Assembly: GCA_964016885.1 (NCBI GenBank)
Contig: OZ024751.1
Coordinates: 20,088,001 to 20,152,000 of the forward strand
DNA: 64,000 bases
Direction of reading: 5' to 3'
DNA from: Eledone cirrhosa
Taxonomy: Eukaryota
Both the position numbers and the translations under genes were made by a program. The notes under the pieces are model-generated. The model worked only from the letters and a program-made list of their open reading frames with translations, was not told where the DNA came from and did no database searches. Positions 9,189 through 54,906 of this stretch are shown piece after piece (within the stretch, counting starts at the first letter, position 1; each line of letters begins with the position of its first letter).

Positions 9189-9268
9189 TATTTTGTCTGA
9201 GGAGAACATGCTTTGCTTTATGTTATACATAAAACTTTGCACCTTCGAAATATATATATAATGAAATA
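9189..9268 (+). ncRNA. Hammerhead ribozyme (C.C stem II class)
   Basis: TATTTTGT-CTGAGGA-GAA-C...TTTATGT/ACATAAA...C-TTC-GAAA-TATATATA-TA-ATGAAATA. Stem I 8 bp with two GU pairs. Confidence 0.7.
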
Positions 9269-9849
9269 AATAGAGATGATATAAAATATATGTCTTTCGT
9301 TTATTACTATGTGTGTGTGTGTGTGTGTGTGTGTGTGTGTGTGTGTGTGTGTGTGTGTGTGTGTGTGTGTGTGTGTGTGTGTGTGTGTGTGTGTGTGTGT
9401 GTGTGTGTGTGTGTGTGTGTGTGCGCGCGTGTGTGTGTGTGTGTGGAAAACGTAAACAAAGCAATGAAGTAACGAAGCAAACAACACAGAACAATGAAGA
9501 AATATATTAGTTTAACGCTTGATATAGTGGGAGATAGTTTTTACGTTTCAGAAGATAGAATGAGAAATAGAATAGAAAGATAGAGTGTGAGAAGAGAAAG
9601 GAACGAAAAACACTTTTATTTAGAAAAAGAACATGTGTATACAGTCAGCCATTTTGGAGATATATATATATATATATATATATATATATATATATATATA
9701 TATGAAAATAGAGAAATTAATGTAAGCAAGAAGCCGATATATATATATATGTGTGTGTGTATGTAAAAGGTAAATAGAAATAACAACACGATCGGTACAG
9801 TATATGGAAGGGATATATTAGGTTAACTCTTGAAATAGCAGGAAGAAGG

Positions 9850-9885
9850 TCTTAACGTTTCGGACGCTAGTCCTTCATCAGAAGA
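9850..9885 (-). ncRNA. Minimal hammerhead ribozyme, family H1
   Basis: TCTT-CTGATGA-A-GGAC-TAGC-GTCC-GAAA-CGTT-AAGA, with palindromic AACGTT stem III. Confidence 0.75.
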
Positions 9886-10384
9886 AAGAAGAAAGAATGA
9901 GAAACAAGATAGATTAAGGGGACGGGCGGGTTGGAATTGGAAAAAATCATCTTATCAAAAGTGTATATTGAGTTAGAAACTCAAAGATGTCCCTTATAAT
10001 TAAAATAGCTCAAGGAAAAAAAATTTCTTGGCCGTGTAATATAATTCAATCTAATAAAGAGAGATAAACACAGATATATACATATCTGTGTTCAAATAAT
10101 AAGGGACCATATTCGCCAGGCTGAATATGATACTCACTATGAACAATACGGTTTGCCAGACTCAATTAAAAAAATAAATTAAGAAAAAGTATAAACCGAT
10201 TTGTGACAACAATCAAATACACATCCATACAGCATTTGGTAAAACTGTTTCGCATCAAGTGAAGGGAATTACCGATTTTATTGCTCGCCAGCGAATCTCG
10301 TCTATTATGATTTGAACACATATATGTATATATCTGTGTTTATCTCTCTTTCTATATATATATATATATATATATATATATATA

Positions 10385-10606
10385 TTTTAAGGATCGATCG
10401 ACTTTCGTCAAATCGGACCGAGGGAACAATGTTTCCATTGGTCTTTCCAGTTGCTAATACTATTTATCGGTCGCAACTCCAGGTAGAAGGAGCAACGTGA
10501 AATAAAGTGTCTTGCTCAAGGACATAACGCATCGCCTGGTCCAGGAATTGAACTCACAACCTCAAGACTGTGAATCCAATTATCTAACCACTCAGCCACA
10601 CGCCTT
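10385..10606 (-). mobile_element. tRNA-derived CORE-type SINE
   Basis: Homolog of 29511-29715 and 53459-53645. Confidence 0.85.
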
Positions 10607-10981
10607 ATATATATATACAAAATTTAGCACAGCATTTAGTACAGCTCTGGTTGTAGCCAAGCTAACGAATGCAATCTCGGTGTGCAGCTAAGCACTCAAT
10701 AGGGTATATTACCCTAGAGTTATAACATTACGTTTAGACAGCTTTGCAAATTGAAGACAGCGATCGATAGACGGGCCGCAGTGACCATAGCGACGAAAAA
10801 AACTGAACTCAGGATAAAATTGTTGACATCATACACAACACATGATATATACCATATAATATACATCACATATAATATATAATATTTCCGCTAGGTTTCT
10901 GTAAATCCGAAATCGACAAATCCAGGGTTCTGATACCATCAACACTATAAACACAGAGCTGGCATATCTAAGAACTGACTA

Positions 10982-11037
10982 ACTGCCTGATGAGGTCATA
11001 GCCATTCAATGGCTATCATCGAAATGTATATAGCAGT
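10982..11037 (+). ncRNA. Hammerhead ribozyme, family H2 (C.C class), followed by AATAAA
   Basis: ACTGC-CTGATGA-GGT-C-ATAGCCAT-TCA-ATGGCTAT-C-ATC-GAAA-TGTATA-TA-GCAGT; AATAAA at 11039. Confidence 0.85.
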
Positions 11038-11274
11038 AAATAAAGTATTATGAGTTCATGCAATTGACTTATGTTTCGTCACTATATATATATATATATA
11101 TATATATATATATATATATATGTATATACGATATGTGTGTGTGTTAGTGTATAAAGGTTACTAATTTAGGTACAAGGCCAACAAGTTTGGGGAGAGTCGA
11201 TTATATCGATAAGCACAGACCTGATGAGCCTCTGGGCTTGAGAAAAATACATTGAACGTAAATGGTTTTGTTAA

Positions 11275-11460
11275 TAATTGTTTCTACTTTAGGCACAAGG
11301 TCAGCAATTACCCAGTGCATTACTGGTACTTTATTTTATCGATCCCGTAAGGATGAAAGGCAAAGTCAACCTCGGCGGGATTTGAACTCAGATCGTAAAG
11401 GGACGTAACTATGCTGGAAAGCATGGCGTCCGACCCTCTACCGATACTGCCAATCCACAA
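11275..11460 (-). mobile_element. tRNA-derived SINE with a Nin/Deu-like central domain
   Basis: Reverse complement has GAGTTCAAATCCCGCCGAGGTTGACTTTGCCTTTCATCCTTACGGG..GATAAAATAAAGTACCAG. Confidence 0.85.
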
Positions 11461-12026
11461 TGTTAGATGAGAGTGGGGTGGAAAAATCAATTGAATGAGT
11501 AAGATGCAGGCCATTAATTTGTATTTAGATGATTGATCTCAGAAATGATGAACGTAAAGCAAAGAGCAGCGAGAGACTGGAAAGTTCCATCTTTGATTAT
11601 AATCGGCCATAGTTTTGTCTTTCTGAGGCACAAGCTTTAGCAGAAATGGGCATTGTGGAGGACCAGTAGTCCCCCATGTATGTAAATCTTCTCTCGGGAC
11701 ATAGTTAAAATTTGAATTCGGAAAGTGTTATGGCTACAATGATGTGATCAAATGCCTGCGTAAGAAGCGGGCCAATCATCTATAATTATTTGATCGAACT
11801 TAGTGAATTGATGAACAAAAAGCAAAGATCAACAGCGCGTTAATCGAGACTTGAACTCAGAAAATGATAGGCTGTAATGAGGTAAATCTTTTAATTAAGA
11901 AAGCTAACGAATATCCAACTTGTGTCTTCTCCATCCTGCTGGCCGGGACCAGAAGGTGGACTGTCCCTTAAGTTTAATTTATGGTGGCTGTGTGTGGATG
12001 TGATTTACTATACATACATGAACATA

Positions 12027-12819
12027 CGTGAATTGGCAGAATGGTTAGAACGTCAGATAGAATGCTTTAAGGTATTCATTCTAGCTCTCTGCTTTTGGAA
12101 TTAAAATCCCTCCGAGGTCAACTTTGCCTTTCATCCTTTCGAGGTTGATAAAAACACGTACCAGTCGAGTACTGGGGTCGATTCTTCCTCTATATCTCTT
12201 TCTCACTTCCTTTCTTTCACTTTCTCTATCCTTCTCTGGAAGAAATCTACTGTACTCAGGCCTGGAGAGGAGATCGGCTCCGCCATTTTTAAAATATCCA
12301 AGAAACGCCGTATGTCGATAAGGCGCTCTTACGACTCTATCAGAAGCCACGGTACCATATATATATATATATATATATATATATATATATATATATATAT
12401 ATATATATATATATATATATATATATATATATATATATATATATATATATATATATATATATATATATATATATATATATATATAGGCAGCGAATAGGCA
12501 GAGCCGTTAGAATATCGGATAGAATGCTTTGTGGCATTCATTTCTGCTCTCTGAGTTCAAATCCCGTCGAGCTCAGCTTTGCCTTTCATACTTTCGAGGT
12601 CGATAAAAAAGTACCAGTCTAGTACTGGGGTCGAGTCTTCTTCTATATCCCTTTCTCATTTTTCCTCTCTCTCACTTTCTATCTTCCTCTAGAAGAAATC
12701 TATTGTATTCAGGCCTGGAGAGGAGATGGGCTCCGCTAGGCTTCAAAAAAATGCCCAAGAAATGCCGTACGTTAACACGGCGCCCCTACGATTATCACGA
12801 GTTACGGGCCCTTACATAC
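12027..12819 (+). mobile_element. Head-to-tail dimer of Nin-like SINEs with CT-rich spacer and hairpin tail, separated by (TA)n
   Basis: Two units at about 12027-12356 and 12486-12819; inverted copy of the dimer at 36755-37420. Confidence 0.8.
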
Positions 12820-53425: not shown

Positions 53426-53458
53426 TTCAAGACATGCTTACTTGATCTTACTATATAT

Positions 53459-53645
53459 AGGCGCGTGGCTGAGTGGTTAGAGATTTGGATTCGCAATCGT
53501 GAGGTTGAGAGTTCGATTCCCGGACCGGGAGATGCGTTATGTCCTTGGGCAAGGCGCTTTATTCTACGTTGCTCCTTCTACCTGGAGTTGCGACCGATAG
53601 ATAGTATTAGCAATTGGAAAGGTTTTACGAAAGTCGATCGACTGT
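53459..53645 (+). mobile_element. tRNA-derived CORE-type SINE
   Basis: GGCGCGTGGCTGAGTGGTTAG..GAGTTCGATTCC..GTCCTTGGGCAAGGC. Confidence 0.85.
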
Positions 53646-53659
53646 CGATAAATATAGAG

Positions 53660-53824
53660 CACCGGTCGTTTCGACAGCTAGAACTGTTCGTATCTAGCTA
53701 TGGAAACGGCCCAAGCTCAGCCGTCGGGGTCCTGAATCTTTTTTATATTACCTACTCTACCACCCCAAGTATCGAGTACTCTGGTACGTTATGGTCCACC
53801 TGGAATCTTCCCACACCTTTTCTG
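53660..53824 (+). mobile_element. GGC half-hammerhead family, short fold-back
   Basis: GTTTCGACAGCTAGA..TCTAGCTATGGAAACGGCC..GCCGTCGGGG plus tail. Confidence 0.75.
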
Positions 53825-53936
53825 ATATATATATATATATATATATGTATGTAAAAGGTAAACAGAAATAACAACACAATCGGTACAGTATATGGAAGGT
53901 ATATATTAGGTTAACGCTTAATATAGCAGGAAGAGG

Positions 53937-53974
53937 TTCTTAACGTTTCGGACTCTAGTCCTTCATCAGAAGAA
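53937..53974 (-). ncRNA. Minimal hammerhead ribozyme, family H1
   Basis: TTCTT-CTGATGA-A-GGAC-TAGA-GTCC-GAAA-CGTT-AAGAA. Confidence 0.75.
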
Positions 53975-54287
53975 AGAATGAGAAAGAAAATAGATTAAGG
54001 GGACGGACGGGATGGAAGTGGAAAAAATGTCTTTAGATAAATCTCGGGTTCAATCGGGGGGGGTAACCACAGTAAATAAGATACTCAATACATAGTAGAG
54101 TATAAATATTTAATATAGAAAAGGCTTCTATTTCATTCGGGAGAAATCGTCAGGAATGAAACAGTTCTCGTCCTCCTTTAAGAGCCTTTTCTATATATAT
54201 ATATATATATATATATATATATATATATAATAAAATACATAAAATAAAATAAATAAGTCAAATATTTAAAATTTGGGTTCGTTTATT

Positions 54288-54342
54288 ACTCCTATATATA
54301 TTTCGGTGACAGCCATCCTTGGCTGTGACCTCTTCAGACAGT
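54288..54342 (-). ncRNA. Hammerhead ribozyme, family H2 (C.C class), followed by AATAAA
   Basis: ACTGT-CTGAAGA-GGT-C-ACAGCCA-AGGA-TGGCTGT-C-ACC-GAAA-TATATA-TA-GGAGT-AATAAA. Confidence 0.8.
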
Positions 54343-54840
54343 CCGAATTGGTGTGGTAGAGACGGGTACACATGTTGAGGTCTTTAACTCCGTCAATACT
54401 CCGATATGCCCAGTTCCTGGTTGGGTTGTTATATATATATATATATATATATATATATATATATATATATATATATATATATATATATGAGATGTGAGAA
54501 AAACCACAGACCCTCCAACTCAACTCACCTTTTGAAAAGCAGAAGAACTGCGAAACCGGTAAGGGAACCAAATAAATATATATATATTTTTTTTTAAATA
54601 AGACTCCAGTTGCATTTTCGATTTCATCTCTTTTTCTTTATATATATATATATATATATATATATATATATATATATATATATATATATATATATATATA
54701 TATATATATGCAAAAGTTTTATTTAAAATTGTTGGGTTACAACAAGTAAGTATTTTATAACCGATATAAAGCACTCGACAAGTTTTTGGAGTAGATATAC
54801 GATAGTAAACAAATGGAAACTATATTTATAAAACCATATT

Positions 54841-54906
54841 TATTTCATTATACATATTTCAGGGATACCATATTAAAAATATGGCATGCCTTCGTCAGAT
54901 AAAATA
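54841..54906 (-). ncRNA. Hammerhead ribozyme, family H5
   Basis: TATTTTAT-CTGACGA-AGG-C-ATGCCATATT..AATATGGTAT-C-CCT-GAAA-TATGTA-TA-ATGAAATA. Confidence 0.85.

What the first reader, a model, noticed from the sequence alone, without database searches (positions are those of the whole stretch)
9189..54906. A hammerhead subclass with a conserved C.C mismatch at position 4 of stem II
Seen: stem II starts with 3 bp whose sequence covaries freely: GAA/UUC (9189), GGU/AUC (10982), GGA/UCU (22763), GGU/ACU (32234), AAG/CUU (39893, 41990), GGU/ACC (54288), AGG/CCU (54841). Each is followed by a C.C mismatch and then a second helix; family H3 has C.U there. These copies also share an AT-rich stem III and an AUA site. 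H2 copies show a clean AUAGCC/GGCUAU to ACAGCC/GGCUGU compensatory swap. Inference: the internal loop is a functional element such as a tertiary contact with stem I or a protein/RT site. I do not recognise it from described HHR classes.
Basis: partly seen in the sequence, partly recalled or inferred. Interest (0 to 1): 0.78.

Follow-up and report, generated by a model that had tools for sequence, protein, structure and literature searches.

The report
Fixed mismatch in octopod Penelope hammerheads
These are hammerhead-type RNA motifs, predicted to cut themselves, at the ends of a known kind of jumping gene present in over 80,000 copies in this genome; across very different families they keep one unpaired cytosine pair and one adenine opposite it, which likely touch each other to hold the RNA in shape.

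Summary
Confirmed, with corrections. The eight named copies and five more in the window are type I hammerheads with a self-complementary stem III (dimer type). They sit in the pseudo-LTRs of Hydra-clade Penelope-like retroelements: parent ORFs carry RT, CxCx5C linker and GIY-YIG lacking CCHH. In 32 distinct copies from position-chosen genome stretches, stem II position 4 never pairs, while positions 2 and 3 always pair with compensatory changes. C10.4 and pyrimidine 11.4 persist in 8 of 8 well-sampled families, including a long-arm family and an ORF-less family; the five with a parent ORF share only 40-55% protein identity. One family has C.C at position 5. A1.6 in stem I is the only other non-core position fixed in all 8. 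My best guess is a compact A1.6/C.Y tertiary contact; a protein site or a brake remain open. No Rfam hammerhead model matches, and none of 56 + 28 published PLE hammerhead rows shows it (one key paper not readable). No excess of 5' ends at the cut site. The scan noted this class before on another piece of this genome (e1-8670794). New variant of a known kind.

The parts
9189..9268 (+). Hammerhead, family F6; C10.4 at 9207, C11.4 at 9243 (2x2 loop with A.C), A1.6 at 9266, predicted cut after 9260
10982..11038 (+). Hammerhead, H2-type; C.C at 10997/11017, A1.6 at 11038 (unpaired), predicted cut after 11032
19638..19788 (+).
20475..20545 (+). Hammerhead, H3; C.U at 20493/20522, stem III AUGCGCAU
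22763..22828 (-). Hammerhead, F4; C.C at 22810/22786
31610..31680 (+). Hammerhead, H3; C.U at 31628/31657
32233..32292 (-). Hammerhead, old family F5 (copies 75-86% alike over long matches); C.C at 32277/32254; this copy has a broken stem I pair
39893..39957 (-). Hammerhead, H1; C.C at 39939/39916; inverted partner of the 40099 copy (Penelope-type 5' inversion)
40099..40163 (+). Hammerhead, H1; C.C at 40117/40140, with a private change at 10.3
41990..42056 (+). Hammerhead, H1; C.C at 42008/42033
54287..54342 (-). Hammerhead, H2; C.C at 54327/54308; private change at 1.2; parent Hydra element in L527
54841..54906 (-). Hammerhead, young H1 family (99-100% identical copies on many contigs); C.C at 54888/54864, A1.6 at 54843; parent Hydra elements in L039, L530, L531
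54773..54792 (-). ACUC...GAGU hairpin just downstream of the first genomic 3' end of H1 copies; candidate RT-recognition element
55082..55152 (+). Hammerhead, H3; C.U at 55100/55129; parent Hydra element in L040
55195..55219 (+). ACUC...GAGU hairpin of the H3 copy

Best explanation
The motifs are type I hammerheads in the pseudo-LTRs of Hydra-clade Penelope-like retroelements, predicted to cut only as dimers, and the fixed C.Y mismatch likely forms a compact tertiary contact with the equally fixed A1.6 of stem I. Shown: the fold by covariation; the location in pLTRs, in sense, about 0.2-0.3 kb upstream of the ORF and 0.7-1.7 kb downstream of it; C10.4, Y11.4 and A1.6 fixed at family level. Inferred: two copies in a tandem transcript pair their 8-nt palindromes to build stem III and cut after N17; selection acts on the master lineages, not on single copies; stem II in this lineage became a long helix and lost the terminal loop that docks on stem I in canonical type I hammerheads, and an internal pyrimidine mismatch at position 4 would take over that job one step nearer the junction (A1.6 with Y11.4, mirroring the published U1.7 with loop-2 A contact). 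C.A and U.A trans Watson-Crick/Hoogsteen pairs are isosteric (recalled), which would explain why 11.4 may be C or U but never a purine in a multi-copy variant.
For: Parent ORFs: intact 749-750 aa frames in L530/L531, RWR, DKT, LYRDD, CNCRxxxxC, GIY-YIG without CCHH, (TA)n flanks match the Hydra definition (PMC8557442 section 11). Position-4-blind descriptor: 275 copies, C.C 204, C.U 59, U.C 7, C.A 2, G-C 1, C-G 1, A.C 1; all 21 variants seen at two or more places have C10.4/Y11.4. Wider descriptor, 375 copies, 8 well-sampled families: by family majority every other position of stem II 1-8 and of 1.1-1.8 has 2-4 states; only 10.4 (C) and 1.6 (A) have one; A1.6 is 146/147, 64/64, 40/40, 38/38, 27/29, 16/16, 12/12, 7/8 and faces G or A (unpaired) in four families. 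A1.6 in 13 of 13 window copies. In 12 other hammerhead types of this genome 1.6 is A in 6 of 12. Genome-wide 78,199 of 83,022 ATTTTRTCTGANGA matches have C at 10.4 (reversed control 398). Parent proteins of H1, H2, H3, F4, MEKQ, MLTK are 39-54% identical between families. The U1.7 contact with the last loop A after a 4-bp stem II is described in PMC11875169 (passages). The family with C.C at position 5 has A at 1.7.
Against: No cleavage, probing or structure data. A1.6 was picked after the fact among about ten positions on an A-rich strand; families share ancestry, so 8 of 8 is not eight independent draws. Two thinly sampled C.C-type families lack it (GCGAUU family, 3 copies, U1.6; L050, 1 copy, G1.6). 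In H1, H3, F4 and MEKQ A1.6 can pair with U2.6 and would have to open. The contact does not by itself explain why 10.4 must be C. No genomic trace of cutting: 5' truncations at the cut site are no more frequent than 8 nt away (13 of 30 sampled of 106 matches vs 10-12 of 30 of 112). In an anole Poseidon element ribozyme activity and the 5' part of stem II were dispensable for insertion in vitro (PMC11167929). PMC11875169 finds U1.7 helpful but not essential.
Confidence: 0.42

Rival explanations
1. The C.Y loop is a binding site for a protein (the element's RT-endonuclease or a host factor) that recognises the unpaired C.
For: Identity-specific conservation of C10.4; kept in a young family whose 2.76-kb unit has no RT ORF and must borrow the protein; metazoan PLE hammerheads cut poorly alone and are thought to need factors (PMC4209133).
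Against: A better RT-site candidate exists outside the ribozyme: an RCUC...GAGY hairpin that occurs twice, each time a few bases 3' of a genomic end, in all families examined and by eye in coral and sea-cucumber Hydra consensi that lack C.C. Published Hydra elements work without the mismatch.
Confidence: 0.25
2. The mismatch is a brake: it keeps the three core-proximal pairs marginal so that most transcripts stay uncut and can serve as templates.
For: Closing it stabilises stem II by 3.3-6.7 kcal/mol and lifts the predicted pairing of positions 2-3 from at most 0.4 in 7 of 13 modelled copies to at least 0.6 in all; position 1 is mismatched too in several families; genomic copies contain the whole ribozyme and show no excess of ends at the cut site.
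Against: Any mismatch would brake, yet 10.4 stays C and 11.4 stays a pyrimidine in every multi-copy variant, while position 1 takes four different mismatches. A pH-sensitive C.C+ pair could be identity-specific but C.U in H3 speaks against it.
Confidence: 0.22
3. The mismatch is inherited from one ancestor and has no function.
For: All families belong to one octopod-rich clade in the protein tree; closing it needs a transversion; single copies lose C10.4 freely by CpG decay (old family: C 20, T 10, A 1 of 31).
Against: Every neighbouring position has changed between families, some by double transversion; stem II length ranges 26-116 nt; core (C3-G8 or U3-A8), stem III and cut triplet differ; a plain C to U transition at 10.4 is not fixed in any well-sampled family.
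Confidence: 0.08

Closest known systems
Hydra clade of C-terminal EN+ Penelope-like elements and their hammerheads (Craig et al. 2021, PMC8557442; includes Hydra-1_Obim from Octopus bimaculoides)
   Same: RWK-like and DKT motifs, CxCx5C linker, GIY-YIG without CCHH, (TA)n targets, pLTR with 5' inversions and tails, sense type I hammerhead near the 3' end, often U.U at stem II position 1.
   Different: The 26 Hydra rows of File S2, including Hydra-1_Obim, show 3-7 bp uninterrupted stem II with no C.C at position 4 (read by eye). Here stem II is 26-116 nt with a fixed C.Y mismatch, stem III is an 8-nt palindrome, and 3' UTRs reach 1-4 kb.
Penelope-type minimal and palindromic-helix-III hammerheads (Cervera and de la Pena 2014, PMC4209133; Lunse et al. 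2017, seen only as a citation)
   Same: Type I topology, CUGANGA/GAAA core, U3-A8 variant, palindromic helix III predicted to need dimers, long helix II, many dispersed copies from truncated elements.
   Different: Their consensus has an unpaired base before G10.1-C11.1 and 'no recognisable tertiary interactions'; none of the 56 rows of Fig. S3 has C.C at position 4. Here position 1 is symmetric and often A-U or a mismatch.
Canonical type I hammerheads (Schistosoma Sm-alpha, Rfam clan CL00010)
   Same: Core; a constrained site at the fourth to fifth step of stem II, where stem I is known to approach; one family here has GUCC/GGAC followed by C.C.
   Different: No terminal loop 2 at that place and no conserved stem I bulge; no U1.7 partner A; no Rfam hammerhead model matches these copies even at E 10.

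Membership tests
Hammerhead ribozyme, type I | Core C3UGANGA9, G12AAA15.1, U16.1 H17 around three stems, open at stem I | tested here: met
Hammerhead ribozyme, type I | Self-cleavage after N17 | not testable with these tools
   needs an in vitro assay; genomic 5'-end test showed no excess at the site
Penelope-type dimer hammerhead | Short self-complementary helix III that is unstable as a monomer | tested here: met
   P(15.1-16.1) at most 0.06 in 13 of 13 modelled monomers; palindromes self-pair at -2.2 to -10.5 kcal/mol
Penelope-type dimer hammerhead | Cleavage as a dimer | not testable with these tools
   inferred from PMC4209133 and PMC6765202
Hydra-clade PLE | Single ORF with RT and C-terminal GIY-YIG | tested here: met
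   L530, L531 (749-750 aa), L534 (830 aa); Pfam gave no RT or GIY-YIG hit for these proteins, so the call rests on motifs read directly
Hydra-clade PLE | RWK and DKT motifs; CxCx5C linker; no CCHH in EN | tested here: met
   RWR, DKT, CNCRxxxxC, no CCHH against section 11 of PMC8557442
Hydra-clade PLE | pLTRs, inverted 5' copies, tails, (TA)n insertion | tested here: met
Hydra-clade PLE | Phylogenetic placement with the published Hydra consensi | not tested
   published sequences were compared by eye only; my tree holds database homologues, not the named consensi
Rfam hammerhead families (CL00010) | Score at or above the gathering threshold | tested here: not met
   0 matches in the window; none at E up to 10 over three copies
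Non-LTR retrozymes | Tandem 150-400 bp repeats with a canonical type I hammerhead in each unit | tested here: not met
   window copies are dispersed or in inverted pairs; only occasional local tandems (L536)

The most novel reading that the evidence does not exclude
A new hammerhead tertiary architecture: an internal C.Y mismatch in a long stem II docks A1.6 of stem I, replacing the loop-loop contact, in a lineage of Penelope elements with more than 80,000 copies; it would be the first tertiary contact in a Penelope dimer hammerhead and could explain how such ribozymes reach useful rates in vivo.
Probability: 0.35. Interest if true: 0.68.

Novelty: new variant of a known kind. Interest (0 to 1): 0.45.

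Why it matters
Penelope hammerheads are described as lacking tertiary contacts and cutting poorly, and their role is open. A two-site signature fixed across families with 40-55% protein identity gives a small, sharp set of mutants (C10.4, Y11.4, A1.6) that can separate a fold contact, a protein site and a brake. Young, intact elements and an ORF-less partner family exist here, so the test can run on current sequences. Descriptors and Rfam miss these motifs, so tens of thousands of octopod copies go unannotated.

Tried and rejected
Rfam: no gathering hit in the window; the E-value run listed 150 of 752 matches, mostly microsatellite noise, with one hammerhead row (HH9 at 24543-24614, another type). 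Pattern scans of metagenome contigs (57 matches) and viral contigs (80 of at least 120 matches examined) gave only chance hits with no paired stems, so no evidence outside this genome. Cut-site footprint: no excess of 5' truncations; one inverted junction exactly at G1.1 in L197 is a single case and was not counted as support. A bulged G in stem I as partner of the C was considered and dropped: present in H1 and H2, absent in H3 and F4. Slipped registers that would pair the C were not found by inspection. No RNA holder listed among sequencing runs; contigs of four runs laid on the 54898 copy list variants at 10.1, 10.7, 11.1, 11.2, 11.6 but none at 10.4 or 11.4, weak because laying needs 80% likeness; the same look at the long-arm family was not obtained. 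No PLE ORF in the window itself. Parents of the F5, F6, UGUC, GCGAUU and L050 families were not found. One search used a structure shifted by one column and was replaced.
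Full report
Setting. The window is G000:C11:20088001-20152000 of a 3.0-Gb, microsatellite-rich genome. The nearest named homologues of the element's protein are from Argonauta hians at 35-41% identity, so the host is probably an octopod (inference).

Observation. A descriptor blind to position 4 recovered the named copies as type I hammerheads, and coordinates for 13 copies are. All have C at 10.4; 11.4 is C in 10 and U in 3. 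On the 11 distinct aligned window rows position 4 is unpaired in 11 of 11 and 8 of 9 stem II positions change on both sides. A covariance model from these rows found 37 copies in 660 kb of stretches chosen by position; on the 32 distinct rows position 4 never pairs and positions 2 and 3 always do. That alignment is fitted to the model, but the blind descriptor gives the same result: 275 copies, 270 with a pyrimidine mismatch, 2 with a Watson-Crick pair, both single copies; all 21 variants seen at two or more places keep C10.4 and Y11.4. These 275 include loci fetched by family, so they over-count young families. Genome-wide, ATTTTRTCTGANGA has 83,022 matches (reversed control 398) and 78,199 have C at 10.4; this pattern covers only the families with A/U-rich stem I.

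What it is. The 54898 copy belongs to a young family with near-identical copies on many contigs, often in inverted pairs. Its parent is a Penelope-like element with pLTR-ORF-pLTR layout (L039); L530 and L531 hold intact frames of 750 and 749 aa. [quoted passage not shown] Pfam did not recognise these proteins, so the assignment rests on motifs read directly and on comparison by eye with the published consensi. Parents were also found for H2 (L526, L527, L537), H3 (L040), F4 (L528, L529) and H1b (L036). Reading the pLTRs of two further Hydra families showed a long-arm hammerhead with C.C at position 4 (MEKQ, L534; a copy lies in the window at 19638-19788) and one with a U3-A8 core and C.C at position 5 (MLTK, L532). 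A wider scan added four more C.C-type families without a known parent. Between-family protein identity is 39-54%, and all fall in one clade with the Argonauta proteins (support 0.94-0.99, FastTree, 56 rows, 43 of 120 listed homologues used). A canonical PLE with CCHH in the same genome has a short stem II without the mismatch.

Selection. In 8 well-sampled families (354 of 375 copies) the majority base at every position of stem II 1-8 and 1.1-1.8 has two to four states, except 10.4 (C) and 1.6 (A). For the old family F5 only 8 copies passed that descriptor and 6 of them have U at 10.4; the alignment of 31 copies shows C 20, T 10, A 1 with G 23, A 8 at the next base, the mark of CpG decay after insertion. 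So single copies decay freely and the constraint acts on master lineages (inference). Closing the mismatch would stabilise stem II by 3.3-6.7 kcal/mol, yet no multi-copy variant does so, whereas position 1 tolerates U.U, C.A, A.A and A.C.

Mechanism. Stem III is an 8-10 nt palindrome that does not form in monomer models, as in PLE hammerheads that cut as dimers (PMC4209133; PMC6765202). For the mismatch I favour a tertiary contact with A1.6: it is fixed in 8 of 8 families, unpaired in four of them, and lies one step inside the known U1.7 contact with the last loop A above a 4-bp stem II (PMC11875169). In 12 other hammerhead types of this genome 1.6 is A in 6. Against: post-hoc choice, A-rich strand, shared ancestry, two thin families without A1.6, and no 3D or kinetic data. 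A protein site remains possible, but a repeated RCUC...GAGY hairpin next to the two genomic ends is the better candidate for the RT site. A brake fits the weak predicted pairing of the proximal helix and the lack of excess 5' ends at the cut site (13 of 30 sampled of 106 matches at the site; 10-12 of 30 of 112 at a control 8 nt away), but not the fixed base identity.

Comparison with print. Rfam: nothing at gathering score, nothing from the hammerhead clan at E up to 10 over three copies. Craig File S2 (26 Hydra rows, with Hydra-1_Obim, plus Chlamys rows) and Cervera Fig. S3 (56 rows) show no C.C at position 4, read by eye from text extractions; the drawn consensus figures there are garbled in text form. 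Full-text searches found no paper on it; 'hammerhead' + 'C-C mismatch' + 'stem II' gave 0 and 'hammerhead ribozyme' + 'cephalopod' + 'retrotransposon' gave only Craig et al.. Lunse et al. 2017, the paper most likely to hold such a variant, and Martick and Scott 2006 were not available, and Arkhipova et al. 2017 was not seen, so absence from print is not established. What I saw: PMC4209133 parts 1-2 of 4 and supplement parts 1-2 of 3; PMC8557442 abstract, passages, section 11, supplement parts 1, 2, 52, 53 of 59; PMC11167929 part 1 of 4 and passages; 10.64898/2026.07.22.740005 part 1 of 5; passages of PMC6765202, PMC6155905, PMC7229834, PMC11300833, PMC11875169. Isostericity of C.A and U.A trans pairs is recalled. 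No other cephalopod genome could be searched; metagenome and viral scans gave chance hits only.

Earlier notes. The scan reported the same class on another piece of this genome (e1-8670794) and a long-arm Hydra hammerhead in another octopus (e1-9563315). I had reached the Hydra assignment before reading them; the long-arm family was found after.

Verdict. Real and conserved; a new variant of a known kind. Interest 0.45; 0.68 if the A1.6/C.Y contact is confirmed (probability about 0.35).

Noticed in passing
L039, L212, L527, L532, L534, L548, L529, L050, L059; window 54773-54792 (-) and 55195-55219 (+): A hairpin with base RCUC...GAGY occurs twice downstream of the cut site in the families where the stretch to the next ORF could be read; the two genomic 3' ends (first at about +50 to +62, second later) lie a few bases 5' of each. 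Candidate RT-recognition element that sets the two start sites and the tail; by eye also in published coral and sea-cucumber Hydra consensi.
   Followed up: partly
L548 and L549 (G000:C3:134041246-134047234): Very young family (at least 40 copies identical over 231 bases) with a 2.76-kb unit between two hammerheads and no RT ORF; keeps C.C at position 4, A1.6 and both hairpins: a non-autonomous Hydra partner.
   Followed up: partly
L532:1060-1135, L052: Hydra family with U3-A8 core and GUCC/GGAC stem II followed by C.C at position 5.
   Followed up: partly
window 222-, 9881-, 23146+, 24561+, 29421+, 51649-, 53969-, 54532+: Other hammerhead types without the mismatch; the 29421 type belongs to a canonical PLE with CCHH endonuclease (L527:6257-7501); 54532 has a U3-A8 core; 24543-24614 scores 38.9 bits on Rfam HH9, below threshold.
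   Followed up: partly
window 40506-40569 (-), 40763-40826 (+), 41878-41986 (-): Weak model hits (about 24 bits); the first two are an inverted pair, the third a broken inverted partner of the 41990 copy.
   Followed up: no
window 3189-3797 (-): 202-aa open frame that looks like the restriction-like endonuclease end of a non-LTR retrotransposon (label recalled).
   Followed up: no
window 46684-46989 (+): Short frame resembling the C-terminus of a Tc1/mariner transposase (label recalled).
   Followed up: no
L197:696-824: Inverted junction whose reverse arm ends exactly at G1.1 of an H2 ribozyme; a single case compatible with a cut template.
   Followed up: partly
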